Notes under the pieces: generated by a model
Databases searched by the model: none
Told to the model about the DNA's origin: nothing
Seen by the model: the letters and a program-made list of their open reading frames with translations, nothing else
Part shown: piece by piece, positions 633 through 31,703 of the stretch
Position numbering within the stretch: the stretch's first letter is position 1
How the letters are laid out: each line of letters opens with the position of its first letter
Source of the DNA: Nostoc punctiforme PCC 73102
Lineage (GTDB): Bacteria > Cyanobacteriota > Cyanobacteriia > Cyanobacteriales > Nostocaceae
DNA: 32,000 bases
NCBI RefSeq assembly: GCF_000020025.1
Contig: NC_010628.1
Location: 8,190,001 to 8,222,000, forward strand
Direction: 5' to 3'
Position numbers and translations under genes: made by a program

Positions 633-648
633 CATCTGAACTGGTAAG

Positions 649-662
649 TATAAATATTTATA
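649..662. promoter_or_regulatory. Perfect 14-bp AT palindrome TATAAATATTTATA between the end repeat and the tnsB start (candidate -10/operator)
   Basis: Palindrome read directly. Also present in copy 1 (278..291) and copy 3 (31623..31636). Function is only inferred from its position upstream of tnsB. Confidence 0.3.
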
Positions 663-700
663 TCAATAAAAGACTGTTTAACTGGCGAAAGCCTAGATTT

Positions 701-6061: not shown

Positions 6062-6095
6062 ATCTTATTTATTCGCCTTTCTCTAAGGTTTTACT

Positions 6096-6146
6096 ACTGC
6101 GGCCACTTTATGCTTTAAAAACGGCCACAATATCCTTTAAGTGACA
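6096..6146. repeat. 51-bp terminal inverted repeat, tniQ-proximal end of copy 2
   Basis: Reverse complement matches 582..632 except one C/G difference at position 34. Ends ...AAGTGACA at 6146. Confidence 0.8.
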
Positions 6147-8502: not shown

Positions 8503-9054
8503 ATGAGCAACTTAAAAAAATGGAAAACTTTAAAATCAAAAATGGTTTTAGATAACCCCTGGTGTCAGGTCAGATAAGATGAAATAGAATTGCCCAATGG
8601 GAAAATTATAGATGATTATTTTGTCAGTATTAAGCCTGATGTTGCGATGGTTTTACCTATCACTACTAATAGACAAATTATTTTTGTCCGCCAATATAGA
8701 CACGCAGTGGGTGAATTTTTCTTAGAACTACCAGCAGGAAATTTCGATCCTACAACAGAGAGTGCAGAAGTGGCAGCAATTAGAGAATTTACAGAAGAAA
8801 CTGGTTATATATCCCAAGAATTTAGAAAAATCGGAACTTTATACGATAAGCCGAGTAAAGATACTAATCAAATACATTTATTTCTAGCAGAGAATGTTAG
8901 CAAAATTGGAGAGCAACAACTGGATATTACCGAAGAGATTGAAGTTGTATTTATCCCTGTAGAATCAGTTTTAGATAAAATTGCCCAAGGTGAAATTTCT
9001 GTTGCAGGAACCGTTGCGGCTCTTTTTTTAGGTTTGAAACTTCTCACTTATTAA
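8503..9054 (+). pseudogene. NUDIX hydrolase (ADP-ribose pyrophosphatase-like) interrupted by an in-frame TAA at 8575..8577
   Basis: Nudix box AGNFDPTTESAEVAAIREFTEETGY. The track ORF starts at TTG 8590. The same frame upstream reads MSNLKKWKTLKSKMVLDNPWCQVR*DEIELPNGK, a typical ADPRase N-terminus starting at ATG 8503. Confidence 0.65.
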
Positions 9055-9071
9055 TAATCCAAGGGTTAATT

Positions 9072-10310
9072 ATGTTTGTTTTTATAGTAACTTATGATAA
9101 TTTCCTCAAACTTCGTCCAAGTAAGTTAGCGGAACTAGCTGAAGATGAAAAAATTCTGATTCCAGTCAAAAGGGTCTTACAGATTATTTCTTATACTGAA
9201 GAGAAAGAATATTACAGAATTATCTTGAAAAACTCTATCAATGGCAAAGATACATGGTTTGTCCGTAAGGAGCATATTGAGATATCTGATTATCTAACTT
9301 ATTATTATGAGAATGCTTATATCGGCTCTACTGTTGCAGTTAATAATATCGAGTCTTATGCTAATTTTCGTTCTTCGGATTTTGGCGGTATCGAGGTTGA
9401 AGAAGAAGTTATTAAACAGTTAAAAGTGCAGCTACAAGAAACTCCAACTATTCAAGAACGATCTTTACAACCTGCCGATATAACTAAAGATTTGGTCGAT
9501 TGTAGTGTGTTCAGTCCTGCTTCTGTAACTCCAAACGATATGTTTCTCGTCCAAGTCTTTGTTCATCTTCCTGAACAAGTTGAATCTGCCAAACAGAATG
9601 CTCAACAATTTGATCCTGAAGCTAAACAGTTAGGTGTGAGAAGTTTAGGAGTACCTATTAAACGGGGAAGTGAACTCACTTTTAACTTGTCAATTCCAAA
9701 ACTAGAAGTGGACGATCCGATTCAAAATTTGAGTTGGAATGGTAGAGCAGATTCTATTCAATTTGGAGTAACGGTTCCTGCTGATATAACTCAGAAAACA
9801 GTCATTGGAATTGTTACTGCCAGCCAAAACACAATTCCTCTCGGTCATCTAAAATTCAAATTATCGATTATTCCGTCTGCGTCTTCTACATCAAAAGAGC
9901 CTCAATTAGTAGGAGAAGTTGCTCGACATTATACAAAAGCATTCGTCTCTTATTCTTCTAAAGATCGGACAGAAGTTCTTAAAAGGGTACAGGGACTTGC
10001 TGTAAGTGGCATTACAGTTTTTCAAGATATCCTTAATTTAGAACCTGGCGATCGCTGGGAGCAAGAACTTTATCGCAACATTGATGAGTGCGATCTCTTC
10101 TTACTATTTTGGTCTACTGCTGCGAAAGAATCGCCGTGGGTGCTTAAAGAAGTCTTGTATGCTCTTGAGCGACAAGGATCTGATGGATTACGTTCCCCCG
10201 AAATTATTCCTGTAATCATAGAAGGCCCACCACTTGTTCCTCCACCTCCTGAATTGCAGGATCTCCATTTTAATGACAAACTTCTTTACTTAATGGCGAC
10301 ATCTAAATAG
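9072..10310 (+). CDS. Protein with unknown N-terminal/middle domains and a C-terminal TIR domain (412 aa)
   Basis: TIR signature from ~aa 289 (9936..10310): KAFVSYSSKD...CDLFLLFWSTAAKESPWVLKEVLYA, with a conserved Glu codon at 10149..10151. Starts 17 nt after the NUDIX stop. Confidence 0.8.
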   Translation: MFVFIVTYDNFLKLRPSKLAELAEDEKILIPVKRVLQIISYTEEKEYYRIILKNSINGKDTWFVRKEHIEISDYLTYYYENAYIGSTVAVNNIESYANFRSSDFGGIEVEEEVIKQLKVQLQETPTIQERSLQPADITKDLVDCSVFSPASVTPNDMFLVQVFVHLPEQVESAKQNAQQFDPEAKQLGVRSLGVPIKRGSELTFNLSIPKLEVDDPIQNLSWNGRADSIQFGVTVPADITQKTVIGIVTASQNTIPLGHLKFKLSIIPSASSTSKEPQLVGEVARHYTKAFVSYSSKDRTEVLKRVQGLAVSGITVFQDILNLEPGDRWEQELYRNIDECDLFLLFWSTAAKESPWVLKEVLYALERQGSDGLRSPEIIPVIIEGPPLVPPPPELQDLHFNDKLLYLMATSK

Positions 10311-10355
10311 CAGATGGCGAGCCAATTTGACTATCACGCCAGCCACCTAATTTTT

Positions 10356-11279
10356 TTATCTTGCCCATTGCTGCAAGATATAAGTATAAAAAGCGTCTTT
10401 ATCTACTTTATCCATCGCATAAATTTTCCGACCGCCAGAAACTACTTTAGTCCGCCCCTGGCTGACTCCAGTAGTGATAATTTCTGTTTCCCATTCGCGC
10501 AATTGATAAAATTCTGGGTGTCCCAAATAAGCTGTGGCCAGCACATCCCAAAAATAATAATCTTGGGGAATAACTAGCGCATAACATTGTCCGGCTAAAT
10601 CAGAGATGGGATAGTGGCGTTGTCGCCCCATTTTTTGCACTAATTCTGATGTGACTGGAACATTATTAGTTAAATCCAAAGGACACATAATAATTTCAAT
10701 TTTGGTTTCCCATACCCGCGCTGCTGAAACCGCGTCCCAATAAACATTCCATTCGGCAGAACCATCTTGTCCAGGTTCTAAACTTTTTTCTACATTGCCA
10801 CCGACATTCAAAGCACCTCCCATCCACACAATTTTGTGAATTTTGGCTTCAATATCCGGTGCTTTGTCTAAAGCTACTGCAACGGTGGTCAACGGCCCAG
10901 TTACCATCAACGTTACGGGGTCTGATGCCTCACGCAACACCTTAATCATGAAATCTTGACCTGTTTCGGCAACTAGAGGCGTAGTAATGGTTTCCCTTTG
11001 ATTGAGAATGGGGAGATGGTCAACGATAAAGGAATCACGGCGATAGAGAGTAGGAAATGGATTGATGCCGCGCACAGTGCTTTCTGCAACCGAGATATGA
11101 GAAAATCCCATCAAATCGAGAATTTTACGTGTGGCGCTAACAGCCGGTTGGATGTAGCAATCTGCTGGAGTGATGACAACACCAAGGAGTTCGATACGAT
11201 CCATCGTCAACAGCAGCATAGTTGCCAGATAGTCATCTACACCGCCATCGTGATCCATTAATACAAGTTGTTTTGACAT
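10356..11279 (-). CDS. Inosine/uridine-preferring nucleoside hydrolase family protein
   Basis: N-terminal aspartate cluster LMDHDGGVDDYLA (DxDxxxDD motif of IUNH enzymes). 307 aa. Confidence 0.85.
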   Translation of the reverse strand: MSKQLVLMDHDGGVDDYLATMLLLTMDRIELLGVVITPADCYIQPAVSATRKILDLMGFSHISVAESTVRGINPFPTLYRRDSFIVDHLPILNQRETITTPLVAETGQDFMIKVLREASDPVTLMVTGPLTTVAVALDKAPDIEAKIHKIVWMGGALNVGGNVEKSLEPGQDGSAEWNVYWDAVSAARVWETKIEIIMCPLDLTNNVPVTSELVQKMGRQRHYPISDLAGQCYALVIPQDYYFWDVLATAYLGHPEFYQLREWETEIITTGVSQGRTKVVSGGRKIYAMDKVDKDAFYTYILQQWAR

Positions 11280-11295
11280 AAAAGGAGATATTAAT

Positions 11296-11727
11296 ATGGA
11301 TGAGTTTATGGAAGCTGCGATTCAAGAAGCAAAACAAGGCAGAGAAGAAGGTGGAATTCCCATTGGTTCGGTTCTCGTCAAGGATGGCAAAATTCTCGGC
11401 AGAGGACACAATAAACGTGTACAAGATGGCGATCCTGTCACGCACGCGGAAATCGATTGTCTCCGCAATGCTGGAAGAGTTGGCAGCTACAGAGGCACTA
11501 CACTCTATTCAACTTTAATGCCGTGTTACCTGTGCGCTGGGGCTGTGGTGCAATTTGGTATTAAAAAAGTCATCGTCGGAGAATCCCAAACTTTTCCTGG
11601 TGCTAAAGAATTTATGGTATCTCACGGTGTGGAAGTAATCGATCTTAATCTTGACGATTGCGAACAAATGATGAGTGAGTTTATTGAAACGAATCCCGAA
11701 CTTTGGAATGAAGATATCGGTAATTAG
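11296..11727 (+). CDS. Cytosine deaminase of the CMP/dCMP zinc-deaminase fold (yeast Fcy1-like)
   Basis: HAE (THAEIDCL) and PCxxC (MPCYLCAGA) zinc motifs. The C-terminus ETNPELWNEDIGN resembles Fcy1 (recalled from memory). Confidence 0.8.
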   Translation: MDEFMEAAIQEAKQGREEGGIPIGSVLVKDGKILGRGHNKRVQDGDPVTHAEIDCLRNAGRVGSYRGTTLYSTLMPCYLCAGAVVQFGIKKVIVGESQTFPGAKEFMVSHGVEVIDLNLDDCEQMMSEFIETNPELWNEDIGN

Positions 11728-11749
11728 AGACGCGATTAATCTCGTCTGT
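11726..11749 (+). terminator. Hairpin dispersed repeat AGAGACGCGATTAATCTCGTCTGT at the cytosine deaminase stop (possible terminator)
   Basis: Imperfect inverted repeat read directly. Same family as 6251..6271. Confidence 0.35.
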
Positions 11750-11932
11750 ACAAGAGTTTGGAGTAGCCCGCGTCTCGGTTACTTTTGATAGGAGAATTAT
11801 GGCAGAAGCGATGGCTTAACCGCCCCCCGGAGGCGATCGCTATCTAAAAGAAATACAACAGAATAAGCTACTCGACTGCCAAGCATTCAGCCCAGACAAA
11901 AAAAGTTACCTTCACACGGATACTCATCACTC

Positions 11933-13057
11933 CTAACGCAGCAAAAGTGTGCTGTTATTATCAATCAGTGTAAGAGTTCCACCAGTGGACATACCTGGGT
12001 TGGACTGTGCTGATGCATTATAAGTCTCAATATAGCGACGCACTTCTAATGGAAAGTGGGGATAGTCTAATACTGCATCTCCATCAGCGATAGTTGCCCA
12101 GAAGTCTCGCAAACTAGGAGCTAATCTTTTCGCCTGTGATAGTGGTAAGTTTAATGGAGAGTGAGTTAGTAACTTGACTAAAAAGGGAAAAGAGCGATCG
12201 CCCATCCACTGCCGCGATGACTCTTGCAAGTCTGGAAAATCAGGCACTGACTCTACCCGATGGGATAAAATTTGCAAAGATTCTTTACCTTGGTTATCCC
12301 GATGAAACTCTAGCACCCGATAAGGGTGAGGATAGCTCACTAAAGAACCAGTGGTAATATCATATACTCCATCTGAGTAAGCAATATCCTGAACATGCAA
12401 ATGCCCTGTGAATACTAGCTTGACTCCGTAGCGCCTCAGCAATTGCAACAGTTCTGCTGAATTGGACAACATGTAGCGATTTGCCAGTGGATGGTTCGAT
12501 TGATTGGGTAAATGTTCCACCACATTATGATGCACCATCACCAAAACTAATTCATCAACAGATGCCGCCAGCACCTCTTCTAACCACCGTAGCTGTTTGG
12601 CATCCAAACACCCTACCTGCTCCCCCTCGTCATTAAAGTAGTTAGAATTCAATCCAATCAGCTTGACTCCAGGTAGCAATTGACGAATGTAGTAAATCTG
12701 CTGCGGATCTTCATAGCCAAACTTCGTGTAATAGTGGGGAAAATCCGCGAAAGCAATTGATTGCTGATCTGCCAACAGCACAGGAACGTCATGATTACCA
12801 GGAACAACATAGACGGGAAAAGGTAGCTGGGCTAAACATTGTTGTAACCAGGCATGGTTTTCTGGTTCGCCGTGCTGGGTTAAATCTCCTGGCAACAATA
12901 AGAAATCTAAATCTAGTTGTGTTAGATGTTCTAGTACACTTTGAAACGCCGAGATACTGACTTCTACCAGATGAAAACGGCTAGGATGATCCCAGATTGT
13001 GTGGGGAAGCGCCACGTGTAAGTCGCTAACTACCGCAAAGCGAAAATTGAGAGTCAT
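11933..13057 (-). CDS. Calcineurin-like metallophosphoesterase
   Basis: Motifs VSDLHV, GDLTQHG, GNHD, VHHN and GHLH in canonical order. Confidence 0.85.
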   Translation of the reverse strand: MTLNFRFAVVSDLHVALPHTIWDHPSRFHLVEVSISAFQSVLEHLTQLDLDFLLLPGDLTQHGEPENHAWLQQCLAQLPFPVYVVPGNHDVPVLLADQQSIAFADFPHYYTKFGYEDPQQIYYIRQLLPGVKLIGLNSNYFNDEGEQVGCLDAKQLRWLEEVLAASVDELVLVMVHHNVVEHLPNQSNHPLANRYMLSNSAELLQLLRRYGVKLVFTGHLHVQDIAYSDGVYDITTGSLVSYPHPYRVLEFHRDNQGKESLQILSHRVESVPDFPDLQESSRQWMGDRSFPFLVKLLTHSPLNLPLSQAKRLAPSLRDFWATIADGDAVLDYPHFPLEVRRYIETYNASAQSNPGMSTGGTLTLIDNNSTLLLR

Positions 13058-13334
13058 TGATTTATGAAAATGTTAAAAGCAGAGGTTAAAACAAGTCTTT
13101 TTCCAAAAGTATAACGCTTGGTTTGTTTCGCTGCTCAGGAGTGCATTTACTTAATATTTGTATACATTAAGCATCGATTACACGCTATGGTGACAATTAA
13201 TTTCGAGGCTGAATATAACCATTAATCTGCAAAAACATTGGAGATTTGATCTAAAGATTTAATAATCAACAGATTTAATAATCAACGTTCAAGTAACCGG
13301 GCGATCGCTTCTATCTGCACGCAAACAATTCAAT

Positions 13335-13440
13335 AGTCTCTAAGCGTAGCCCTTCTCTACGAGAAGCTGCGCCCTAAACGTAGCTATGCCGCAGGCTTTA
13401 CGGCTGCGCTCAGGAACCACTCGTCGTAGACATCGCTTTC
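13335..13440. repeat. Nostoc-type dispersed repeat (CTCTACGAGAAGCTGCGC... / ...GTCGTAGACATCGCT)
   Basis: Shares the CTCTACGAGA(A/C)GCTGCGC core with 21705..21730. GTCGTAGACATCGCT recurs at 14441..14455. Confidence 0.45.
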
Positions 13441-13513
13441 TTTGTTGGTTTCTCTGCTACTCCCCTTTTCGGTAAAATAACTTAGCAGATCGCTAAGGAA
13501 CAGGTTCAGGATC

Positions 13514-14386
13514 ATGGCTCAAGCTAGTATTGGGATTATTGGTGGCAGTGGTCTGTATAAAATGGACGCGCTCAAAGATGTAGAAGAGGTGCATATCCAA
13601 ACCCCCTTTGGTTCACCATCTGATGCTTTGATTCTGGGAACATTGGATGGTACACGGGTAGCTTTTTTGGCGCGTCATGGCCGCAATCACACGCTGTTAC
13701 CCTCTGAGTTACCGTTTCGCGCTAATATCTATGCGATGAAGCAATTGGGTGTGAAGTATTTAATTTCAGCTAGTGCTGTGGGTTCCTTGAAGGAAGAGGC
13801 GAAACCATTGGATATGGTGGTGCCAGATCAGTTTATTGACAGAACCAAAAATCGGATTTCCACGTTTTTCGGTGAGGGAATTGTGGCTCATATTGCCTTT
13901 GGCGATCCGATTTGTAAGAACTTGGCTGCTGTGTTGGCAGATGCGATCGCATCTCTCAATTTACCAGATGTTACTCTGCATCGCAGCGGTACTTATGTGT
14001 GCATGGAAGGGCCAGCTTTTTCCACTAAGGCAGAATCGAATCTTTACCGCAGTTGGGGCGCAACTATCATTGGGATGACGAATTTACCAGAGGCGAAGTT
14101 GGCAAGGGAAGCGGAAATTGCATACTCAACCTTAGCGCTGGTGACAGATTATGATTGTTGGCATCCAGACCATGACAGTGTGACGGTGGAATTGGTGATT
14201 GGCAATTTGCTGCGGAATGCTGTGAATGCTCAAAAGGTGATTCAAGAAACTGTGCGGCGCTTGAGTGAAAATCCGCCAACCAGTGAGGCGCATTCGGCGT
14301 TGCAGTATGCGATTTTGACTCAATTGGATAAAGCACCAGCCGCAACGAAGGAAAAGTTAGGGTTATTGTTGCAGAAGTATTTGTAA
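13514..14386 (+). CDS. mtnP: S-methyl-5'-thioadenosine phosphorylase
   Basis: 290 aa. N-terminal [10 protein letters not shown] and PNP/MTAP family layout ([30 protein letters not shown]). Confidence 0.9.
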
Positions 14387-15322: not shown

Positions 15323-15542
15323 AGCGATCGCACTTCCTCAGATTACAGTAACAGCGATCGCACTTTCTCAAATTACAGCAAAAGCGATCGCATTTTCTGA
15401 GATTACAGTAATAGCGATCGCACTTTCTCAAATTACAGTAATAGCGATCGCATTTTCTGAGATTACAGTAATAGCGATCGCACTTCCTCAGATTACAATA
15501 ACAGCGATCGCACTTTCTCAAATTACAGCAAAAGCGATCGCT
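15323..15542. repeat. Tandem array of 30-bp units, each starting with HIP1 (AGCGATCGCAYTTYCTSARATTACARYAAH), about 7.3 copies
   Basis: Unit starts at 15323, 15353, 15383, 15413, 15443, 15473, 15503 and 15533 (partial). The units are contiguous with no spacers. Confidence 0.9.
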
Positions 15543-15630: not shown

Positions 15631-15798
15631 GCGTTTCATCAACAAACTCATGCGTTTCATCAACAAAGGCATGCGTTTCATCAACAAACTCATGCGTTTC
15701 ATCAACAAACTCATGCGTTTCATCAACAAAGGCATGCGTTTCATCAACAAAAGCATGAGTTTCATCAACAAAAGCATGAGTTTCATCAACAAAGGCAT
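15631..15798. repeat. Tandem array of 21-bp units (GCGTTTCATCAACAAACTCAT), 8 copies plus a degenerate ninth
   Basis: Unit starts at 15631 and every 21 nt to 15778. Variation is confined to a few positions (ACT/AGG/AAG, GCG/GAG). Confidence 0.9.
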
Positions 15799-15985: not shown

Positions 15986-18900
15986 TCACCTGCGTGTGCC
16001 AATATCATCACATAAATGCTTATCGTCCTTGCTCACATTGGGGTTATTTTGCAAATAATCGCGCACCCAAGTACAACCCTTAACCATTAAATCATCCAAA
16101 TTGAGATTCCACAGTTTCACCGTCTTGTCAGAACTTGCAGAGGCAATGGTTTGACCGTCGGGGCTAAATGCCACGCCCCAAACCGAACTGCTATGACCAG
16201 TGAGAGTTTGTAAGAGTTGCCCGTTGCGATTCCACAGCTTCACCGTCTTGTCATCACTTGCAGAGGCAATGGTTTGACCGTCGGGGCTAAATGCCACGCC
16301 CCTAACCGAACTGCTATGACCAGTGAGAGTTTGTAAGAGTTGCCCGTTGCGATTCCACAGCTTCACCGTCTTGTCATCACTTGCAGAGGCAATGGTTTGA
16401 CCGTCGGGGCTAAATGCCACGCCCCTAACCGAACTGCTATGACCAGTGAGAGTTTGTAAGAGTTGCCCGTTGCGATTCCACAGCTTCACCGTCTTGTCAT
16501 CACTTGCAGAGGCAATGGTTTGATCGTCGGGGCTAAATGCCACGCCCCAAACCGAACTGCTATGACCAGTGAGAGTTTGTAAGAGTTGCCCGTTGCGATT
16601 CCACAGCTTCACCGTCTTGTCATCACTTGCAGAGGCAATGGTTTGACCGTCGGGGCTAAATGCCACGCCCCTAACCGAACTGCTATGACCAGTGAGAGTT
16701 TGTAAGAGTTGCCCGTTGCGATTCCACAGCTTCACCGTCTTGTCATCACTTGCAGAGGCAATGGTTTGACCGTCGGGGCTAAATGCCACGCCCCAAACCG
16801 AACTGCTATGACCAGTGAGAGTTTGTAAGAGTTGCCCGTTGCGATTCCACAGCTTCACCGTCTTGTCATCACTTGCAGAGGCAATGGTTTGACCGTCGGG
16901 GCTAAATGCCACGCCCCAAACCGAACTGCTATGACCAGTGAGAGTTTGTAAGAGTTGCCCGTTGCGATTCCACAGCTTCACCGTCTTGTCATCACTTGCA
17001 GAGGCAATGGTTTGACCGTCGGGCCTAAATGCCACGCCATTAACCGAACTGCTATGACCAGTGAGAGTTTGTAAGAGTTGCCCGTTGCGATTCCACAGCT
17101 TCACCGTCTTGTCATCACTTGCAGAGGCAATGGTTTGACCGTCGGGGCTAAATGCCACGCCCCTAACCGAACTGCTATGACCAGTGAGAGTTTGTAAGAG
17201 TTGCCCGTTGCGATTCCACAGCTTCACCGTCTTGTCATCACTTGCAGAGGCAATGGTTTGACCGTCGGGGCTAAATGCCACGCCCCAAACCGAACTGCTA
17301 TGACCAGTGAGAGTTTGTAAGAGTTGCCCGTTGCGATTCCACAGCTTCACCGTCTTGTCATCACTTGCAGAGGCAATGGTTTGACCGTCGGGGCTAAATG
17401 CCACGCCCCAAACCGAACTGCTATGACCAGTGAGAGTTTGTAAGAGTTGCCCGTTGCGATTCCACAGCTTCACCGTCTTGTCATCACTTGCAGAGGCAAT
17501 GGTTTGACCGTCGGGGCTAAATGCCACGCCCCTAACCGAACTGCTATGACCAGTGAGAGTTTGTAAGAGTTGCCCGTTGCGATTCCACAGCTTCACCGTC
17601 TTGTCATCACTTGCAGAGGCAATGGTTTGACCGTCGGGGCTAAATGCCACGCCCCAAACCGAACTGCTATGACCAGTGAGAGTTTGTAAGAGTTGCCCGT
17701 TGCGATTCCACAGCTTCACCGTCTTGTCATCACTTGCAGAGGCAATGGTTTGACCGTCGGGGCTAAATGCCACGCCCCTAACCGAACTGCTATGAGCTTC
17801 TAATCGGTTACGTTCTTTGACTCCATAAATTACTTGCTGGAGTGTGGCTACTGCCAAAACGCGGGTATTTGGTTCTACCTTTTTATTTGGTGTTTTGAGT
17901 CGTTTTCCTACCTTCAAACCTTCTATTAAAGCATCAAGTTCAAAATTTGATGCCATCAGGTTTTGTGATTTCAGGCTATTGGCAAGAATTTCGGCATTTA
18001 TCCGGCGTTTATCTGCATCGGCTTTGGCGGCAATTGCTTGCTGTTCTTGTTTCTGGGCAATGTTTCGCTGTTTTTCAGCGTCTGCCTGTCTATCCTTTGC
18101 TAATTGTTCAGCCGCTTTTGTTTGCTTAAGGGCTTTTTCTAAGTCTATTCCTCGTTTTTCTGCTAATTCCTGTGCCGACTTGGCTTGTGCCTCACCTGTT
18201 TCAGCCCTTTGACGCTGCTTGTCTGCCTCCCGGTGTTGTTCCTCTGCTTTTTGCTGCTGGTTCTGAGCATTTTTTGTTTGACGGTCTGCTTCTTGCCGCT
18301 GTGTTTGTTCTCTTTTTAGGGCATCTTGAGCAATTAAACGTTGCTCTTTTTCACTGTCACGGGCTTTTTGGGCAATCAGATTTTGCTTGTAAATATACCA
18401 AGCGACTCCCGTCGATAATGTCGAAAATACAATCATTACAATCACATAAGGCAGTGCAGGTTTAAGCTGTTCCCATCTATCCCGCAAGTTAAACGGCAAA
18501 TGTTTATTAATCCACTTATAATCAAAGACTTGCCGATAAACTTCATTCCGCACCCGCAAAACATTATTCTCCCGCCGCACCACCCCTGAAAGCTTTAAGT
18601 GAGATTTAGCTAAAGACTGTTCTTCATCCACAACCGCCCGCTTACCCCAGCGAATCTCGCGGTAAATAGTCAAAACCTCCGGGTCTGGTGAGCGTTTGGT
18701 GAGCATATCGCGGACAAACTGCAAGTTATTGTCTTGTTCGCTCATTGCGCCAAAAAATGTGCTGCTAACTATGCTGTCTATATCGGCAGAGGATAAGACT
18801 CGATCCCCCCTAACCCCCCTTAAGAAGGGGGGAACAATAGAACTGTTGCTAACGGGGGCTGTGGGAATCTCCAAATCTGGAAGTTCATTGCCCCCCTTTT

Positions 18901-19675
18901 TAAGGGGGGTTGGGGGGATCAAAACCAAGGCATCACAGAGACGCTGCGTTAAATAAGGATGTCCCCCCGTCCACTTCAACACCTGGCGTAATACCTGCTT
19001 AGACTCATCGCTGGGTAATCCCAATCCCTCAGCGAAGGGTAAGGCTTCCTCAAAGGTAAAATCAGTTAAATCCACACGCTGTCCAATATTAAACGGTGTG
19101 CGCTTGGCATCGCTGATTAAATCGCCGGGAGTCGCTACCCCCATTAAAACAAAAGAAAGCCGCCCAAACTCAGGATTAGTCGCACGGGCAACATAGAGAT
19201 AACGAATTGCGATAAAAAAATCATCGGTAAAATCCAGGCTGAGGGTAGAGTCAATTTCATCCACAAAAATCACCACTTGCCCTTCAACCTCAGCCAGCAA
19301 AACCTTCTCAAAAAACTGTGTCAGCCGTTGCGATACTCCCAGATGCTCGTGTTCTTGCCACCAACTCACCACATCTGTATCAAACATAAGTTGGTCATCC
19401 AGTTTGACCAAAAAGCCAAAATACCACTGTTCGGCTGTGACACTTGCCCCCAATTCCTGAAGGTCAACAATTACTGAGCTAATCCCCTCTTCCCTTAATG
19501 TGTCTGCCGTGCGTACCATCAGGCTAGACTTACCCATTTGGCGCGGCGTTAGCACATAGGCGAATATTGCTGACCGACATAAACCAAGCAATTCCTCATC
19601 AGCTTGACGGGGAATGTAAATCCCACTGCCAGCCTGTACAGTCCCCCCCACGGTGTAAATGCTTGGATTACCCAC
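15986..19675 (-). CDS. STAND-like (AAA_35-type) ATPase - TM helix - coiled coil - 14x WD40 protein, 1229 aa
   Basis: Walker A TPRQMGKSS, Walker B VVIFVDEID, GGHPYL motif. Hydrophobic segment at aa 406-429, Q/E/K/A-rich segment at aa 430-566, and 14 WD40 units of 41 aa from aa 628. The GTG start overlaps the upstream gene's stop. Confidence 0.9.
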   Translation of the reverse strand: MGNPSIYTVGGTVQAGSGIYIPRQADEELLGLCRSAIFAYVLTPRQMGKSSLMVRTADTLREEGISSVIVDLQELGASVTAEQWYFGFLVKLDDQLMFDTDVVSWWQEHEHLGVSQRLTQFFEKVLLAEVEGQVVIFVDEIDSTLSLDFTDDFFIAIRYLYVARATNPEFGRLSFVLMGVATPGDLISDAKRTPFNIGQRVDLTDFTFEEALPFAEGLGLPSDESKQVLRQVLKWTGGHPYLTQRLCDALVLIPPTPLKKGGNELPDLEIPTAPVSNSSIVPPFLRGVRGDRVLSSADIDSIVSSTFFGAMSEQDNNLQFVRDMLTKRSPDPEVLTIYREIRWGKRAVVDEEQSLAKSHLKLSGVVRRENNVLRVRNEVYRQVFDYKWINKHLPFNLRDRWEQLKPALPYVIVMIVFSTLSTGVAWYIYKQNLIAQKARDSEKEQRLIAQDALKREQTQRQEADRQTKNAQNQQQKAEEQHREADKQRQRAETGEAQAKSAQELAEKRGIDLEKALKQTKAAEQLAKDRQADAEKQRNIAQKQEQQAIAAKADADKRRINAEILANSLKSQNLMASNFELDALIEGLKVGKRLKTPNKKVEPNTRVLAVATLQQVIYGVKERNRLEAHSSSVRGVAFSPDGQTIASASDDKTVKLWNRNGQLLQTLTGHSSSVWGVAFSPDGQTIASASDDKTVKLWNRNGQLLQTLTGHSSSVRGVAFSPDGQTIASASDDKTVKLWNRNGQLLQTLTGHSSSVWGVAFSPDGQTIASASDDKTVKLWNRNGQLLQTLTGHSSSVWGVAFSPDGQTIASASDDKTVKLWNRNGQLLQTLTGHSSSVRGVAFSPDGQTIASASDDKTVKLWNRNGQLLQTLTGHSSSVNGVAFRPDGQTIASASDDKTVKLWNRNGQLLQTLTGHSSSVWGVAFSPDGQTIASASDDKTVKLWNRNGQLLQTLTGHSSSVWGVAFSPDGQTIASASDDKTVKLWNRNGQLLQTLTGHSSSVRGVAFSPDGQTIASASDDKTVKLWNRNGQLLQTLTGHSSSVWGVAFSPDDQTIASASDDKTVKLWNRNGQLLQTLTGHSSSVRGVAFSPDGQTIASASDDKTVKLWNRNGQLLQTLTGHSSSVRGVAFSPDGQTIASASDDKTVKLWNRNGQLLQTLTGHSSSVWGVAFSPDGQTIASASSDKTVKLWNLNLDDLMVKGCTWVRDYLQNNPNVSKDDKHLCDDIGTRR
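16106..17794 (-). repeat. 14 tandem near-identical 123-bp repeats encoding WD40 blades
   Basis: Unit HSSSV[W/R/N]GVAF[S/R]PD[G/D]QTIASAS[D/S]DKTVKLWNRNGQLLQTLTG. The nucleotide units differ at only a handful of positions. Confidence 0.95.
18802..18920. mobile_element. 119-bp palindromic G/C-tract mini-element (SDR/MITE-like) inside the STAND-WD40 CDS
   Basis: Arms are GATCCCCCCTAACCCCCCTTAAGAAGGGGGG and, on the other side, CCCCCCTTTTTAAGGGGGGTTGGGGGGATC, around a 57-bp centre. Translated in frame as ~aa 252-292 (LIPPTPLKKGG...PPFLRGVRGDR). Confidence 0.6.
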
Positions 19676-21203
19676 GTAGATGCTCCCGGAAATAATCGGT
19701 ATAAAGTTGACAACGAGGAAACACTACACGCCCTTCCCGGCGCACCAAACCCGCACCCCGCAACCGGAAAAAGATGCGCTCATCTTCACAGGTGTTCTGG
19801 TGAATTACTTGGAACATACCTTGAACCAACTCCTGTTTGTTATGCAGCCGGAAGAGGTGGTTACGCAAATGATTGCCAAAGGGGCCATCCTCTGCGATCG
19901 CATTGGCAAATAATTCGGTAGGATAGAGGCGATCGCTAGCAACTGAGTAAAGTGCAAGGCGTACTAAGTAAGGATGTCCACCTAGCAACGCTATTAATTG
20001 CTTTTCTTCGCTGGCATTGAAGGGTGAACCATGACGGCGGTTTAAATCAGCAACCTGTGCTGCTGTAAAATCTTCTAAATCAATTACTAGCCCAACATTA
20101 AAGGGGGATTGGTTGAGATTATCAATTAGCTGGTAGGGTTCGGTGGAAGTAACCAGCGCTAAATCCAGTTGCTTCCAGATGGGATTAGTGGCGCGGCTAT
20201 TGTGCCAGCTTCGCAGCATTCCAAAGAAATCAGAGCGAAAATCAGTATCAAAGACCCTTTCAACTTCATCCATCGCTAAGACAATGGGGTTGCCAAACTC
20301 TTTGAGCAAATAGCGGCCGACGTAGCGAGTGCAACGCTGACTATTGCCCAAAGGCATATTCCAATACTCATCAACTTTATCTGTCATTTCCAGTTCATCA
20401 GTTAACCAAGTACAGAACTGGCGAAAGAAAAGGTCAGCATTAGTTAAGGCAGCTTTGTCAAACAATTGAAAATCCAGCAAAGCAACCCGCTTACCTGCAT
20501 TCACAGCAGTATTAATTGTGCGGATTAACAGGGAACTTTTGCCCATTTGCCGGGGGCCTTTAATTGTAATTGTCACACCCTGCCGCTCAATAGTCTCTAA
20601 AGTAAGGGCATCAGATGAGCGTTCCACGTAAAAAGCGGATTGCGATTCCATTGTTCCTTCGGGCATTTCCAGGGAGACAGGCTGTGCTGAAGGAAAGGGA
20701 CGGGGTAGGAGTGACGGCTGACTCTTCTGGATTAAGTCTGCTTTTGATTTTTCTTCACTGATAGCTAATGCACCGCCATAGACAGCCTGCAACAACTCTG
20801 CAATTAGTCGCGGCGTATCTTCTGCATCTTTCCAGAATGCCCAGTTAATCCCATTTAAGTAAGCACTCAAGGGATACAGGAACGGTTCTTGATACGCCAG
20901 ACGCACCGGGAGAATTATCGGTCGTCCTGACTGTGATTTTGCCAAGTGGTGTGCTGTCTCTATCTCTGCCACCACCATCTCGCTGCTAGTTGACAAAGCA
21001 GAAAGGAAAGTAATCAAAAAATCAGCTTGGCGGATTTCTGCTTCAATACATTCAGCCCAGCGTGTGCCAACAGACATGGTTTGGTCGATGAAGACTTTGT
21101 GCTGCTGCGATAGTGCTTGGAAGACTTGGAGTGCTACTGGTTCATCGGGGCTAGCATTACGCTTGTAACTGATGAAGATGCGTTTAGCCTGTGAGTTTAA
21201 CAT
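19668..21203 (-). CDS. TIR domain - STAND-like (AAA_35-type) ATPase, 511 aa
   Basis: N-terminal TIR (RIFISYKRN...ADFLITFLSALSTSSEMVVAEIE). Walker A GPRQMGKSS, Walker B IVLAMDEVE and GGHPYL. The ATPase module is paralogous to that of the downstream WD40 protein. Confidence 0.85.
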   Translation of the reverse strand: MLNSQAKRIFISYKRNASPDEPVALQVFQALSQQHKVFIDQTMSVGTRWAECIEAEIRQADFLITFLSALSTSSEMVVAEIETAHHLAKSQSGRPIILPVRLAYQEPFLYPLSAYLNGINWAFWKDAEDTPRLIAELLQAVYGGALAISEEKSKADLIQKSQPSLLPRPFPSAQPVSLEMPEGTMESQSAFYVERSSDALTLETIERQGVTITIKGPRQMGKSSLLIRTINTAVNAGKRVALLDFQLFDKAALTNADLFFRQFCTWLTDELEMTDKVDEYWNMPLGNSQRCTRYVGRYLLKEFGNPIVLAMDEVERVFDTDFRSDFFGMLRSWHNSRATNPIWKQLDLALVTSTEPYQLIDNLNQSPFNVGLVIDLEDFTAAQVADLNRRHGSPFNASEEKQLIALLGGHPYLVRLALYSVASDRLYPTELFANAIAEDGPFGNHLRNHLFRLHNKQELVQGMFQVIHQNTCEDERIFFRLRGAGLVRREGRVVFPRCQLYTDYFREHLRG

Positions 21204-21430: not shown

Positions 21431-21556
21431 TTACGGAGTTCAAAGGCTCATTAACGGAGTTCAAAGACTCGTTAACAGAGCTAAAAGACTCGTTAATGGA
21501 GCTAAAAGACTCGTTAACGGAGTTCAAAGACTCGTTAACGGAGTTCAAAAACTCGT
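21431..21556. repeat. Tandem array of 21-bp units (TAACGGAGTTCAAAGACTCGT), 6 copies
   Basis: Units at 21431, 21452, 21473, 21494, 21515 and 21536. Lies ~230 bp upstream of the TIR-ATPase start codon. Confidence 0.9.
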
Positions 21557-21657
21557 TAGAGATATGAAAAATAATGTAGAAATGTAGCAGTGCTACGTCT
21601 CTACAAGGATTCTAGATGATGCATATTTAATTTATAGAGATATCTATTATTGAAGAA

Positions 21658-26137: not shown

Positions 26138-26188
26138 TGTCACTTAAAGGATATTGTGGCCGTTTTTAAAGCATAAAGTGGCCGCAGT
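26138..26188. repeat. 51-bp terminal inverted repeat, tniQ-proximal end of copy 3
   Basis: TGTCACTTAAAGGATATTGTGGCCGTTTTTAAAGCATAAAGTGGCCGCAGT, identical to the reverse complement of 6096..6146. Confidence 0.8.
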
Positions 26189-26222
26189 AGTAAAACCTTA
26201 GAGAAAGGCGAATAAATAAGAT

Positions 26223-27809
26223 TTACTGTGAAAGATCCAGTCTTATCTGCCTTAAAACATCAATTACCTCAGCCTGCCACAGCAAAGAGGGATGAGGCAT
26301 AAATTTTCTGAGATTTTTAGCAGTAGGGGTAATGCCTTGTGCATGAAGTACTGAAGCGAGTTGGCGTACTTCTCGACAGCCTTGCTCAATAGCTAGTTTA
26401 TGGACGAATTTGCGGTAATCTTTATAGCGTAAAGAAATAGCATGGCACACAATAGGGCAATAGTGGTAGAAAGTAGCCAAACCAATACCAGTTCTCTTAG
26501 CTATTTTTCTTAGAGAAGGTGGTGGATACTCGTCGCTAAACAAAGCTAATTCAAGTATGTCTCTGATGTGTAAAAATCTTAGCTGCTGTTGATATTCACT
26601 ATATCTAGTAGCCAAAGATGCTGATAAAGATTTTGAGCAAGCAGTTAAACTACTAGGAGTTTTGAATCCTAAACGAACAGCTAATTGAGTTAAAGAAGGA
26701 GGTGGTTCTTCTTCTTGAGCTAGTTGCATCGCCTGAATAACTCGTTCGCACTTAGGACTACTATTTGAAGTAACTAAAGCAGACTGTGATGATAATTTTT
26801 TCTGTTTAGGAGCAGGTAGAGAAACTAGCTGCTTAAGAGTAAGAGGTAGTATTTTAAGTTGAAGAAAATCGACAAGATTAGTTGATAAGGCGTAGCAGAT
26901 TTTCAAAAGTTTATCTAAATTTGGGATGGCTACACCTGAATACCAATGTAGAATTTCATATCTCGATAACCCAAGCCAACGACCAAAAGCGGAAACATTA
27001 CCTTGAGTATATTGATAGACGTAAGCTTCTAGGATTGTTTTAATAGTCTCTCTTGGAGGTGGACAAGGAAATTCAGGAGCTTGAGCAATTAAATCTCCTA
27101 AAGTCTTAACTATCCAAATCTCTTGCTGTAAATTGGGTATCTCCTCGAACAATCTCTTATCTGGCAAAGATACTTCATAGTTCATCCCCAACCAACCACC
27201 ACATTTCAGACAAAATCCAGGTCGTGAGTTATGCCACAGGTGTAAAAATTCAAGGTCACAGTGAGGACATTTTGATTCTAAAAATCGATAATGGATGGGA
27301 CAAATGTTAGCTGGTTTCAAAGCCCACAGCAGAGGTGAATAAATGACTTGTTGATTATTTAACCAGTCTTGATAGCAATAAGGACACCAAGCATGAGAAT
27401 GCTTGAGCAATCCCAAAACTGGGAAGACTTTTGCCCAAGGTAGCATTGTCAAAAACTGTAAGTCAGTACGTTTTGTCAATATTTCTAGAGCAAAAACCAG
27501 TTGTTTAGCTCCAATTTGTGTTCCGTTTAAAGCTTTTACAGAAGCTTGTCCATACAAACTTACGATACTTTTAGAATTCAAGGGATTGGTAGTATGGTTA
27601 TGCCCAACTATTGGTTTTATCTCTCTAGCCAATAAAGTTCCAGGCAATACGCTATGAGCTGCGGCTAGACGAGCAACATAGCTAGTCAGACTTTCAACAT
27701 AACAAGTACCAAGTCCAATCGGTTCCAGATGAAACAACCGGCTAGGACTGGGAGTAAATTCTGGGTCTTTGAGCCACAATTCATCGTTAACCGCCATGTT
27801 AGTCATCAT
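26223..27809 (-). CDS. tniQ: Long TniQ/TnsD-like target-selection protein, 528 aa (identical to copy 2)
   Basis: Translation identical to ORF 4475..6061. Confidence 0.8.
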   Translation of the reverse strand: MMTNMAVNDELWLKDPEFTPSPSRLFHLEPIGLGTCYVESLTSYVARLAAAHSVLPGTLLAREIKPIVGHNHTTNPLNSKSIVSLYGQASVKALNGTQIGAKQLVFALEILTKRTDLQFLTMLPWAKVFPVLGLLKHSHAWCPYCYQDWLNNQQVIYSPLLWALKPANICPIHYRFLESKCPHCDLEFLHLWHNSRPGFCLKCGGWLGMNYEVSLPDKRLFEEIPNLQQEIWIVKTLGDLIAQAPEFPCPPPRETIKTILEAYVYQYTQGNVSAFGRWLGLSRYEILHWYSGVAIPNLDKLLKICYALSTNLVDFLQLKILPLTLKQLVSLPAPKQKKLSSQSALVTSNSSPKCERVIQAMQLAQEEEPPPSLTQLAVRLGFKTPSSLTACSKSLSASLATRYSEYQQQLRFLHIRDILELALFSDEYPPPSLRKIAKRTGIGLATFYHYCPIVCHAISLRYKDYRKFVHKLAIEQGCREVRQLASVLHAQGITPTAKNLRKFMPHPSLLWQAEVIDVLRQIRLDLSQ

Positions 27810-28938: not shown

Positions 28939-29106
28939 AGCTCCTCTGTATTGTAAGCTTCTATTTTGGTTAAATCTATTAATTTTTTTGCTGATGATTT
29001 TGGCTTTTTAATGCTTTCTGAACCTGCCAAAATATTTTTATCTACATCTTGAACATTAGCTGAATAATTGTGTTTACTTAATTTACTTTCAATAACTGAG
29101 CTTTTT

Positions 29107-31584: not shown

Positions 31585-31652
31585 AAATCTAGGCTTTCGC
31601 CAGTTAAACAGTCTTTTATTGATATAAATATTTATACTTACCAGTTCAGATG

Positions 31653-31703
31653 ACTGCGGCCACTTTATGGTTTAAAAACGGCCACAATATCCTTTAAGTG
31701 ACA
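31653..31703. repeat. 51-bp terminal inverted repeat, tnsB-proximal end of copy 3
   Basis: Identical to 308..358. Terminus ...AAGTGACA at 31703. Confidence 0.8.

What the first reader, a model, noticed from the sequence alone, without database searches (positions are those of the whole stretch)
16106..17794. Fourteen nearly identical 123-bp WD40 units with variation confined to a few codons
Seen: the 14 consecutive 41-aa units are identical except at one main site (SSV-[W/R/N]-GVAF) and four single substitutions. From N to C the main site reads R,W,R,W,W,R,N,W,W,R,W,R,R,W. The single substitutions are S->R in unit 7, G->D in unit 11, and D->S plus R->L in unit 14. The nucleotide units are correspondingly almost identical (TGG/AGG/AAT at the variable codon). 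Established: high internal repeat identity with hypervariable positions on the propeller's top face is the hallmark of concerted evolution plus diversifying selection in fungal NLR WD40/ANK/TPR domains (Podospora HNWD/NWD genes). Similar highly conserved repeats are reported in cyanobacterial and actinobacterial STAND proteins. Inference: the array is a recombination-driven, rapidly reshuffling recognition surface of two 7-bladed propellers. Repeat number and W/R pattern are likely to differ between close strains. It is also a region where short-read assemblies can miscount units.
Basis: partly seen in the sequence, partly recalled or inferred. Interest (0 to 1): 0.65.

Follow-up and report, generated by a model that had tools for sequence, protein, structure and literature searches.

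The report
Known Nostoc WRAP WD40 propeller array
The fourteen near-identical 123-bp repeats are real, but they are the already published and crystallised "WRAP" double propeller of Nostoc punctiforme protein Npun_R6612, the probable sensor half of a two-gene TIR/STAND immune-like module, so this is a rediscovery and not a new feature.

Summary
There are fourteen 41-aa WD40 units on the minus strand (16073-17794). The main variable site reads R,W,R,W,W,R,N,W,W,R,W,R,R,W, and units 1-13 carry no synonymous differences.

The array matches PDB 2YMU at 572 of 573 aligned residues. 2YMU is the WRAP domain of Npun_R6612 from Nostoc punctiforme PCC 73102. It was described in 2008-2022 papers as the most symmetric natural beta-propeller: two 7-bladed propellers in an operon with a TIR-STAND gene. 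It is therefore already known.

- The W/R/N site is the "R1" top-face hotspot at the start of strand a.
- In 18 related arrays, variability peaks at the same four top-face positions as in Podospora NWD genes. Non-synonymous change there exceeds synonymous change elsewhere in all 18.
- Blades show no positional orthology between species and many four-gamete violations.
- Seventeen of 37 related contigs break inside the array.

Diversifying selection cannot be shown for this array alone, because only five nucleotide positions vary. Fourteen units is the mode (9 of 12 longer complete arrays), with 15 and 11 as exceptions.

Two points go beyond the papers I could read. All seven arginine-type codons start with A, which argues for spread by descent and not for six independent mutations. 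A conserved transmembrane-like helix with a positive-inside bias suggests the propellers may lie outside the cytoplasm.

The parts
15986..19675 (-). Gene for the 1229-aa STAND-WD40 protein (= Npun_R6612). It starts at GTG and overlaps the stop codon of the upstream gene by 8 nt.
   Evidence: ORF list and translation. Identity to PDB 2YMU. Literature identification.
16073..17794 (-). Fourteen 123-bp / 41-aa WD40 units: the WRAP domain, forming two 7-bladed propellers.
   Evidence: Pfam WD40 gives 14 stretches, E=3.4e-206. 2YMU. AlphaFold2 model of the first seven blades, pLDDT 92.6.
16133..17794 (-). Homogeneous (amplified or homogenised) tract: 13 units plus 63 nt. It has only five variable nucleotide positions and no synonymous differences.
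17777..17779 (-). R1 hotspot codon of unit 1 (AGG). The same codon recurs every 123 nt down to 16178-16180 and reads AGG, TGG or AAT. This is the main variable site.
   Evidence: R1 rule from PMC3419727. Position at the start of strand a.
15986..16105 (-). Non-repeated C-terminal cap with two conserved cysteines (LNLDDLMVKGCTWVRDYLQNNPNVSKDDKHLCDDIGTRR), including the stop codon.
   Evidence: The motif is found at the extreme C-terminus of proteins in 788 representative clusters.
18392..18463 (-). Predicted single transmembrane helix (about aa 405-428, ALPYVIVMIVFSTLSTGVAWYIY).
   Evidence: Kyte-Doolittle 19-residue mean of 1.86. The segment is conserved at the same place in 63 of 78 family members. 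It is helical in the AlphaFold2 model.
17954..18391 (-). Long charged helical stalk (about aa 429-574), rich in A, Q, K, E and R.
   Evidence: AlphaFold2 helices 3-114 and 118-180 of the fragment aa 395-640, pLDDT mostly 70-90. Composition. Low-complexity Pfam hit to Borrelia_P83.
18941..19645 (-). N-terminal STAND-type NTPase domain (Pfam AAA_35, aa 11-245). Walker A is RQMGKSS and Walker B is VIFVDEID.
   Evidence: Pfam AAA_35 E=2.9e-36. Motifs read from the translation.
19668..21203 (-). Upstream partner gene: a 511-aa TIR-STAND protein (TIR_2 at aa 9-128, AAA_35 at aa 180-507).
   Evidence: Pfam TIR_2 E=1.4e-18 and AAA_35 E=2.1e-121. It is adjacent and conserved at 94-98% identity in other Nostoc loci. 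The literature describes the operon.

Best explanation
The array encodes the WRAP domain (WD40-family Recently Amplified Propeller) of Npun_R6612 from Nostoc punctiforme PCC 73102. Its fourteen blades fold into two 7-bladed WD40 propellers.

The protein reads, from N to C: a STAND-type P-loop NTPase (Pfam AAA_35), one transmembrane-like helix, a helical stalk of about 170 residues, the two propellers, and a short cap with two cysteines. Its gene overlaps by 8 nt the stop of a highly conserved TIR-STAND gene.

Shown:
- The identity of the protein, the fold and the operon.
- The near identity of the 123-bp units, with only five variable nucleotide positions and no synonymous difference in units 1-13.
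- The main variable codon is the R1 top-face hotspot.

Inferred (evolution): the tract was expanded or homogenised very recently by unequal recombination or slippage between blades, the same turnover that has scrambled blade order in every related species. The W/R dimorphism arose once (TGG<->AGG) and was distributed among blades by duplication or conversion, not by six or seven independent mutations.

Inferred (function): the propellers are the ligand-recognition surface of an NLR-like, two-component immune or cell-death switch. Ligand binding on the top faces would drive NTPase oligomerisation with the paralogous NTPase domain of the partner. That would bring TIR domains together as the effector.
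For: Identity:
- phmmer against the PDB gives 2YMU_A at E=0, with 572/573 aligned residues identical.
- PMC6805158 describes Npun_R6612 WRAP with '6 Trp->Arg at blades 1, 3, 6, 10, 12, 13', no synonymous mutations and two 7-bladed propellers. These are the same blades as.
- PMC9218822 describes the STAND/TIR-STAND operon.

Architecture: Pfam results, the transmembrane-like segment, the helical stalk and the 8-nt overlap.

Top-face site: the R1 rule and the model's secondary structure.

Turnover in the family:
- Entropy peaks at unit positions 4, 5, 7, 8, 23 and 25.
- At the a-priori hotspots (5, 7, 23), pN exceeds the pS of the remaining codons in 18/18 arrays, while the remaining codons have dN/dS of 0.12-0.59 (the window array, with almost no change, excluded).
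- Same-position blades are no more alike than other blades between species.
- 16-56% of informative site pairs are four-gamete incompatible in relatives.

Single origin of W/R:
- All six R codons are AGG and none is CGG. N is AAT, which shares the A.
- The probability that at least 6 of 13 random substitutions hit the same site with the same base is about 2.5e-10.

Sensor/effector asymmetry: the TIR-STAND partner is 94-98% identical among Nostoc, whereas the WRAP protein's non-repeat part is 65-85% identical.
Against: - No experiment links this operon to phage defence or cell death.
- PADLOC and NCBIfam give only generic domain-level hits.
- TIR catalytic residues were not verified, because the PDB sequence search found nothing.
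- With one informative site, recombination inside this array cannot be tested. Convergent selection for Arg could in principle mimic spread by descent.
- The published reading is a single amplification from one blade followed by point mutations.
- If the hydrophobic segment really spans the membrane, the propellers cannot contact the NTPase as in classical NLR autoinhibition.
Confidence: 0.8

Rival explanations
1. Published model taken literally: one blade was amplified to 14 copies in a single recent event. All differences, including six Trp->Arg changes, are independent later point mutations.
For: - There are no synonymous differences in units 1-13, and the 5' boundary of the tract is sharp.
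- This is the view stated in PMC6805158 and PMC9218822.
- Close homologues carry array-specific nucleotides, and in the clearest cases within-array identity exceeds between-array identity: L014 at 0.975 against about 0.79, and the window at 0.979 against at most 0.956.
Against: - Six or seven identical T->A transversions at one site among about 13 changes has a probability of about 2.5e-10 if the changes are neutral and independent.
- Even if Arg were selected, TGG can reach Arg through AGG or CGG, yet all are AGG. That gives 0.5^6, about 0.016, at equal rates, and less with a transition bias (arithmetic).
- Relatives carry many different residues at this site (N, L, F, Y, E, K, M). Selection for diversity would not keep choosing Arg.
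Confidence: 0.25
2. Assembly artefact: the number of units or their near identity results from a mis-assembled repeat.
For: Related short-read assemblies do break or apparently collapse at this array.
Against: - The 14-blade domain was cloned, sequenced and crystallised independently (2YMU, 577 residues, 572/573 identical).
- The same window carries three 100% identical copies of a 5.6-kb element that were resolved, so it is not a short-read draft.
- Fourteen units is also the count in nine complete arrays of other genomes.
Confidence: 0.01
3. The module is not an immune sensor. It would instead be a membrane-anchored signalling or scaffold protein of ordinary physiology, for example envelope or filament signalling. 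The repeat identity would then be a neutral by-product of recombination-prone DNA.
For: - The locus is syntenic across many Nostoc genomes, flanked by DUF6658, an LPG-synthase-like gene, DUF4351, PNP and a metallophosphoesterase. It is not carried on an obvious mobile island.
- There is no hit to curated defence systems.
- Paralogues carry CHASE2, a classical environmental sensor domain.
Against: - TIR plus paired STAND NTPases plus hypervariable repeat surfaces is the signature of conflict systems (PMC7159879, PMC9218822).
- pN exceeds pS specifically at the ligand-binding hotspots in 18/18 arrays.
- Relatives fuse caspase, trypsin or TIR effectors to the same kind of WD40 array (domains assigned by eye).
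Confidence: 0.2

Closest known systems
WRAP domain of Npun_R6612, Nostoc punctiforme PCC 73102 (ACC84870.1; PDB 2YMU; fragments 6R5X/6R5Y/6R5Z/6R60)
   Same: It is the same sequence: 572/573 residues match, Arg is in the same blades, there are 14 blades, and the operon partner is the same.
   Different: Nothing of substance. The deposited chain has one Leu->His difference in blade 8. The papers I could read do not mention the transmembrane-like helix, and they count the six Arg as independent mutations.
Podospora anserina HET-E/HET-D/NWD (HNWD) WD40 repeats
   Same: - Internal repeat identity is high.
- Variability is confined to two pairs of codons that flank a conserved residue: x-V-x in the d-a loop / start of strand a, and x-D-x in the b-c turn, both on the top face (PMC1805685, compared).
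- Repeats are reshuffled and there is no positional orthology.
   Different: - The NTPase is AAA_35, not NACHT.
- The effector (TIR) sits on a separate protein.
- There is a transmembrane-like helix and a stalk between the NTPase and the repeats.
- Unit number is modal at 14 rather than freely variable.
- There is no RIP.
- In this particular array only one of the four positions varies.
Apaf-1 / bacterial Apaf-1-like STANDs with WD40 sensors
   Same: A STAND NTPase is followed by two consecutive WD40 propellers used as the sensor. Apaf-1 is the best non-WRAP hit in the PDB, at E=2.5e-71. Cyanobacterial homologues are noted in PMC13581612.
   Different: - Apaf-1 propellers are differentiated (low internal identity) and cytosolic.
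- Its NOD is NB-ARC.
- Its effector recruitment domain is on the same chain.
PkwA (Thermomonospora curvata) and other highly repetitive prokaryotic WD40 proteins
   Same: These are prokaryotic 7-bladed WD40 domains with high internal identity and DHSW tetrads, with hotspot positions as the variable ones (PMC5587647, PMC6113231).
   Different: PkwA has a Ser/Thr kinase N-terminus, one propeller, and lower internal identity.
Characterised anti-phage STAND systems (Avs, bNACHT) and Thoeris-type TIR systems
   Same: They share the general logic of a repeat sensor, a STAND NTPase and an effector such as TIR.
   Different: There is no family-level match. PADLOC gives only a WD40-region hit to HEAT-ARM_XIII and weak TIR/PDC hits. 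NCBIfam Thoeris ThcB4 scores 28.8 bits against a cut-off of 220.

Membership tests
WRAP / Npun_R6612 (specific published protein) | Sequence identity to the deposited WRAP chain (PDB 2YMU). | tested here: met
   572/573 aligned residues are identical, E=0.
WRAP / Npun_R6612 (specific published protein) | Fourteen blades, with Arg instead of Trp in blades 1, 3, 6, 10, 12 and 13, and no synonymous differences in the amplified DNA. | tested here: met
   against PMC6805158. The only two synonymous differences lie in the divergent 3' part of unit 14.
WRAP / Npun_R6612 (specific published protein) | Operon with a TIR-STAND gene. | tested here: met
   The upstream gene 19668-21203 has TIR_2 plus AAA_35 and overlaps by 8 nt. 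Described in PMC9218822.
WD40 repeat / 7-bladed beta-propeller | Repeats of about 40 residues that match the WD40 profile, with four strands per blade. | tested here: met
   PF00400 gives 14 stretches, E=3.4e-206. The AlphaFold2 model shows 4 strands per unit, pLDDT 92.6. A crystal structure exists.
WD40 repeat / 7-bladed beta-propeller | DHSW tetrad residues and the V-R1-R2-V bulge motif. | tested here: met
   Every unit has GH, IASAS, SxDxT and LW, plus V-[R/W/N]-G-V. The rule is from PMC3419727.
STAND NTPase / NLR-like receptor | P-loop NTPase of the STAND class with Walker A and Walker B motifs. | tested here: met
   Pfam AAA_35 E=2.9e-36, covering profile positions 4-238 of 331. GKSS and VIFVDEID are present in the translation. 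The protein is called a STAND ATPase in PMC9218822.
STAND NTPase / NLR-like receptor | Tripartite effector-NOD-repeat architecture on one chain. | tested here: not met
   The WD40 protein has no effector domain. The TIR is on the separate upstream protein.
STAND NTPase / NLR-like receptor | Ligand-triggered, NTP-dependent oligomerisation with an immune or cell-death output. | not testable with these tools
   No experimental data were found in the papers read.
Fungal HNWD-type hypervariable WD40 arrays | High internal identity, with variation confined to four top-face codons under positive selection. | tested here: inconclusive
   Family-wide the feature is met. In this array only R1 varies, plus D-1 in unit 14, and there are too few changes for any test.
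Fungal HNWD-type hypervariable WD40 arrays | Repeat-number and repeat-order polymorphism between strains. | tested here: inconclusive
   No sister strain was found. Among species the counts are 14 (mode), 15 and 11. Counts of 1-4 cannot be told apart from assembly collapse.
Fungal HNWD-type hypervariable WD40 arrays | NACHT nucleotide-binding domain. | tested here: not met
   The domain is AAA_35, and no NACHT hit was found.
Curated anti-phage defence systems (PADLOC, NCBIfam) | A match to a system-specific protein model. | tested here: not met
   Only generic WD40 or TIR-level hits were found.

The most novel reading that the evidence does not exclude
The two WRAP propellers may not be cytoplasmic. 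The conserved hydrophobic helix between the NTPase and the stalk would be a signal-anchor with N-in/C-out topology. The stalk of about 170 residues and the hypervariable propeller faces would then be displayed in the periplasm or envelope. That would make this a transmembrane NLR-like receptor with a Toll-like-receptor logic: a repeat sensor outside, and NTPase plus TIR inside. It could sense phage particles, neighbouring cells or other external ligands.

Evidence:
- A transmembrane-like segment sits at the same place in 63/78 family members, and its flanking net charge is higher on the N-side in 55/63 (p=2e-10).
- The same pattern appears in 28 unrelated-architecture proteins that share the C-terminal cap, with 5.3 against 2.4 K/R in the flanks (p=3e-5).
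- Paralogues replace the WD40 array by CHASE2, an extracytoplasmic sensor domain, directly after the same helix.

Caveats:
- Only Kyte-Doolittle hydropathy was available.
- In the window protein itself the flanks are tied, at 4/4 K/R.
- The cysteine argument was not significant.
- The key 2014 J Mol Biol paper could not be read, so this may already have been noted.
Probability: 0.4. Interest if true: 0.55.

Novelty: already known. Interest (0 to 1): 0.2.

Why it matters
As a scan result it does not matter much. The array is the textbook example of a recently amplified beta-propeller. Its structure is solved, and its operon has been discussed as a prokaryotic forerunner of innate-immunity networks.

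Three by-products may be worth a specialist's attention:
- The W/R dimorphism is better explained by spread of two blade alleles than by six parallel mutations. This bears on the debate between single-blade amplification and concerted evolution.
- The cyanobacterial family shows the same four hypervariable top-face positions as the fungal NWD genes.
- A conserved transmembrane-like helix raises the testable possibility that these bacterial NLR-like sensors look outward.

Tried and rejected
- tRNA and Rfam scans of the window found nothing.
- PADLOC and NCBIfam gave no system-level match for either gene.
- A PDB sequence search with the TIR domain, meant to check the catalytic Glu, returned only a chance hit at E=0.78. 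The catalytic residue is therefore unverified.
- A word-indexed protein search with the 45-aa tail found only 7 short contig-end fragments. The exhaustive representative search replaced it.
- Positional orthology of blades between species was tested. Diagonal and off-diagonal identities are about equal, so there is none.
- I considered arguing that the post-TM region has exactly two cysteines and is therefore periplasmic. TM-less proteins also carry the Cys pair, and the contrast is not significant (14/25 against 3/9 with exactly two Cys). I dropped it to a weak hint.
- Target-site duplications of the Tn7-like copies: none was recognisable.
- The idea that the 20-kb segment between the two Tn7-like copies is transposon cargo was rejected. 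The same neighbours flank the operon in many Nostoc genomes.
- The intergenic 21-bp tandem repeats were not found in any related locus.
- A literature search for 'AAA_35/PF14516' returned noise.
- Dunin-Horkawicz et al. 2014 (J Mol Biol) is not held in the library.
- The dN/dS contrast with hypervariable columns chosen from the data is partly circular. I repeated it with the three a-priori hotspot positions.
Full report
**1. Observation**

Tandem Repeats Finder reports one outstanding array at 16101-17795: period 123, 13.8 copies, 98% matches, score 3285. It lies in a 1229-aa ORF on the minus strand, 15986-19675.

I cut the protein at each HSSSV. This gives 14 units spaced exactly 41 aa apart, at window 16073-17794. 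Codon 6 reads R,W,R,W,W,R,N,W,W,R,W,R,R,W (AGG/TGG/AAT). The other differences are S->R in unit 7, G->D in unit 11, and D->S and R->L in unit 14.

At the nucleotide level, units 1-13 differ at only five positions (unit nt 16, 17, 18, 33, 41), and all five changes are non-synonymous. Unit 14 departs from nt 64 onward and runs into a non-repeated tail. The homogeneous tract is therefore 16133-17794, or 1662 nt. Its 5' edge is sharp: the preceding 123 nt are 27% identical to the unit.

**2. What it is**

A sequence search of the PDB gives 2YMU chain A ("WD-40 repeat protein") at E=0, with 572 of 573 aligned residues identical. Engineered "WRAP" fragments (6R5Y, 6R5Z, 6R60, 7BIx) follow.

PMC6805158 (eLife 2019) describes the source. 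[quoted passage not shown] It also reports no synonymous mutation and a fold of two 7-bladed propellers. The blades with Arg are the same as.

[quoted passage not shown] PMC5587647 and PMC6113231 list and characterise it as well.

The finding is therefore a correct rediscovery of a published, crystallised protein. An assembly artefact is excluded by the independent cloning and crystallisation. It is also unlikely because the window resolves three 100%-identical copies of a 5.6-kb element.

**3. Anatomy of the gene pair**

The WD40 protein has these parts, from N to C:
- An AAA_35 (STAND-type) NTPase at aa 11-245 (E=2.9e-36), with Walker A RQMGKSS and Walker B VIFVDEID.
- A hydrophobic segment at about aa 405-428 (Kyte-Doolittle 1.86).
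- A region of about 170 residues rich in A, Q, K, E and R. AlphaFold2 predicts it as long helices continuous with the hydrophobic helix (pLDDT mostly 70-90).
- The 14 blades.
- A cap, LNLDDLMVKGCTWVRDYLQNNPNVSKDDKHLCDD, with the only two cysteines of the C-terminal half.

The upstream gene (19668-21203, minus strand) encodes TIR_2 (E=1.4e-18) plus a full AAA_35 domain (E=2.1e-121). Its stop codon overlaps the GTG start of the WD40 gene by 8 nt.

**4. Relatives**

A search with the non-repeat 627 aa found 3482 homologues. Nearly all of the best Nostoc hits are annotated "partial" and stop after 1-4 WD40 units.

I examined 79 loci from species-representative genomes:
- The TIR-STAND gene sits directly upstream in most of them. 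It is 94-98% identical among Nostoc, while the non-repeat part of the WD40 protein is only 65-85% identical. This asymmetry fits a conserved effector paired with a fast-evolving sensor.
- The same neighbours recur in many Nostoc genomes: DUF6658, an LPG-synthase-like gene and an unknown 438-aa gene on one side, and DUF4351, PNP_UDP and a metallophosphoesterase on the other. The operon is therefore a resident chromosomal locus, not cargo of the Tn7-like elements that flank it in this window.

For the 37 loci whose linker is at least 60% identical to the query:
- 17 run off the contig inside the array.
- 9 have exactly 14 units.
- 3 have 15 (L028, L078, and the more distant L079).
- 1 has 11 (L024).
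- 7 have 1-4 units followed by the normal tail.

Six further full-length proteins, including three from contigs longer than 5 Mb, also have 14 units. Short-read collapse and real contraction cannot be separated for the small counts.

**5. Where the variation sits**

The published sequence rule for WD40 top-face hotspots is (V/L/I)-R1-R2-(V/L/I). R1-2 lies two residues earlier, and D-1 lies just before the tetrad Asp (PMC3419727). The unit GHSSS-V-[R/W/N]-G-V-AFSPDGQTIASAS-D-D-KT fits the rule. The variable residue is R1, and the D->S change of unit 14 is D-1.

An AlphaFold2 model of blades 1-7 (pLDDT 92.6) places V-R-G-V-A-F as strand a, immediately after the d-a loop. It places D-D-K-T as the b-c turn.

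Across 18 related arrays with at least 10 clean units, within-array entropy peaks at unit positions 23 (1.87 bits), 7 (1.79), 5 (1.33), 4 (1.29), 25 (1.07) and 8 (0.87). Most other positions are below 0.6. These are two pairs that flank a conserved V and a conserved D. The same geometry is reported for the four positively selected codons (7, 9, 25, 27) of the Podospora NWD repeats, which map to the top of the propeller (PMC1805685).

**6. Selection and recombination**

Columns chosen from the data gave dN/dS above 1 in most arrays, but that choice is partly circular. I repeated the test with the three a-priori hotspot codons. There, pN (0.15-0.65) exceeds the pS of the remaining codons in 18 of 18 arrays. 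The remaining codons are under purifying selection, with dN/dS of 0.12-0.59 in every array except the window's own, which has almost no change.

Blades at the same ordinal position in two species are no more alike than blades at different positions (diagonal about equal to off-diagonal). Four-gamete-incompatible site pairs are abundant in relatives. Examples are 63/136 in L028 and 125/231 in L078, and hotspot cassettes recur in different combinations in L014.

For the window array itself there is a single informative site, so neither recombination nor selection can be tested. Five distinct non-synonymous changes and no synonymous change would arise by chance with probability of roughly 0.2. 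This figure is my own arithmetic and assumes about 75% of random changes are non-synonymous.

**7. The W/R pattern**

The literature counts six independent Trp->Arg mutations. Under uniform random mutation, at least 6 of 13 substitutions hitting the same site with the same base has a probability of about 2.5e-10.

Even if Arg were selected, TGG can become AGG or CGG. All six are AGG, and the Asn codon AAT shares the A. The probability is 0.5^6, about 0.016, at equal rates, and lower with a transition bias.

I therefore favour a single TGG<->AGG event whose two alleles were spread among blades by duplication, unequal crossing-over or conversion. This is concerted evolution in the broad sense.

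One post hoc observation: every consecutive pair of blades holds one W and one R/N (p=0.037 for 7:7 labels). This is too weak to build on.

**8. Function**

Nothing experimental is known about function.

Architecture, the conserved-effector/variable-sensor asymmetry and hotspot diversification all fit an NLR-like conflict system, as proposed in the literature. PADLOC and NCBIfam give no system-level match. I could not verify the TIR catalytic residue.

**9. A lead beyond the papers I could read**

The hydrophobic segment is conserved at the same distance from the N-terminus in 63 of 78 family members, whatever follows it (WD40, TPR or CHASE2). The flanks obey the positive-inside rule for an N-in orientation: net charge is higher on the N-side in 55 of 63 (p=2e-10).

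Paralogues with 63-70% identical NTPase parts continue after the same helix with CHASE2, an extracytoplasmic sensor domain, followed by three more hydrophobic helices.

The C-terminal Cys cap occurs in 788 representative clusters, always at the very C-terminus. Of 55 such proteins of at least 500 aa, 28 have one hydrophobic helix between N-terminal effector/STAND parts and the WD40 array. By eye those N-terminal parts are caspase-, TIR-, trypsin- and CHAT-like. The helix is preceded by a basic cluster: 5.3 against 2.4 K/R, N>C in 25/28 (p=3e-5).

This predicts that the stalk and propellers are extracytoplasmic. The caveats are these:
- Only hydropathy was available.
- The window protein's own flanks are tied (4/4 K/R).
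- The cysteine argument is not significant.
- A periplasmic location of sensors has been proposed for other STAND systems (PMC10907252).

**10. Verdict**

These parts are right: the fold, the top-face location, the family-level reshuffling and diversification, and the assembly fragility. These parts are not demonstrable: selection on this array and strain polymorphism. Unit number looks constrained at 14.

Interest as a discovery is low.

Noticed in passing
582-6146 (+), 26138-31703 (-), 1-358 (-): The window holds three copies of a compact Tn7-like element of about 5.57 kb; the third is cut by the window start. Each carries a TnsA/TnsB-like fusion, a TniB/TnsC-like ATPase and TniQ, and no cargo. 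The ends are roughly 52-bp inverted repeats beginning TGTCACTTAAAGG. The two full copies are inverted and bracket 19,991 bp that contain the WRAP operon. No target-site duplication was recognisable. A Nostoc sp. C057 plasmid carries the TniQ half at 99.3% identity.
   Followed up: partly
29117 (copy 2) versus 3167/3168 (copy 1): The two full Tn7-like copies differ only by one extra C (GGGTTTT versus GGGCTTTT). It truncates the transposase-like ORF of copy 2 from 883 to 825 aa, so copy 2 may be disabled.
   Followed up: yes
15323-15541, 15631-15798, 21433-21558: Intergenic tandem repeats flank the operon on both sides: 30 bp x 7.3 (each unit containing a GCGATCGC HIP1 site), 21 bp x 8 and 21 bp x 6. 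The 21-bp units have self-complementary ends. The downstream 21-bp unit was searched for in the 81 related loci and was not found; the others were not searched.
   Followed up: partly
8590-14386: A cluster of nucleotide-metabolism and TIR genes sits next to the operon: NUDIX, a 412-aa protein with a C-terminal TIR domain, an inosine-uridine nucleoside hydrolase, a cytidine/dCMP-type deaminase, a metallophosphoesterase and a PNP_UDP phosphorylase. The cluster resembles nucleotide-centred conflict systems. PADLOC gives only weak hits. The metallophosphoesterase and PNP genes recur beside the operon in other Nostoc genomes; the other genes of the cluster were not checked.
   Followed up: partly
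19668-21203 versus 17795-19675, and loci L002-L036: The evolutionary rates of the two partners are very unequal. The TIR-STAND partner is 94-98% identical among Nostoc species, while the non-repeat part of the WD40 protein is only 65-85% identical.
   Followed up: yes
15986-16105: The C-terminal cap motif GCxW..DYL..NPN......LCD, with two conserved cysteines, is very widespread (788 representative clusters). It always sits at the extreme C-terminus of WD40 arrays that follow varied N-terminal effector/STAND parts.
   Followed up: partly
16073-17794: Seven blades have T and seven have A at the first base of the R1 codon. Every consecutive blade pair contains one of each (post hoc p=0.037). This might hint at a two-blade seed, or it may be chance.
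   Followed up: partly
unit 8, about 16811-16933 (query residue 344): The deposited 2YMU chain differs from the genome by one Leu->His (NGQHLQTL). It is probably a cloning or PCR change in the construct.
   Followed up: no
L080 (Nostoc sp. ChiSLP02), L081 (Nostoc sp. ChiQUE01a), P0013, P0001: These close relatives are annotated as complete proteins with only two blades plus the normal tail, and in P0013 the two blades are identical. They could be assembly collapses. They could also be genuine contracted arrays, since published work shows that 2-blade WRAP fragments tetramerise into 8-bladed propellers.
   Followed up: partly
L028 (Nostoc sp. LEGE 12447), L078 (Nostoc linckia z4), L024 (Calothrix membranacea): These are complete arrays with 15, 15 and 11 units instead of 14. 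Blade number is therefore not strictly fixed in the family.
   Followed up: yes
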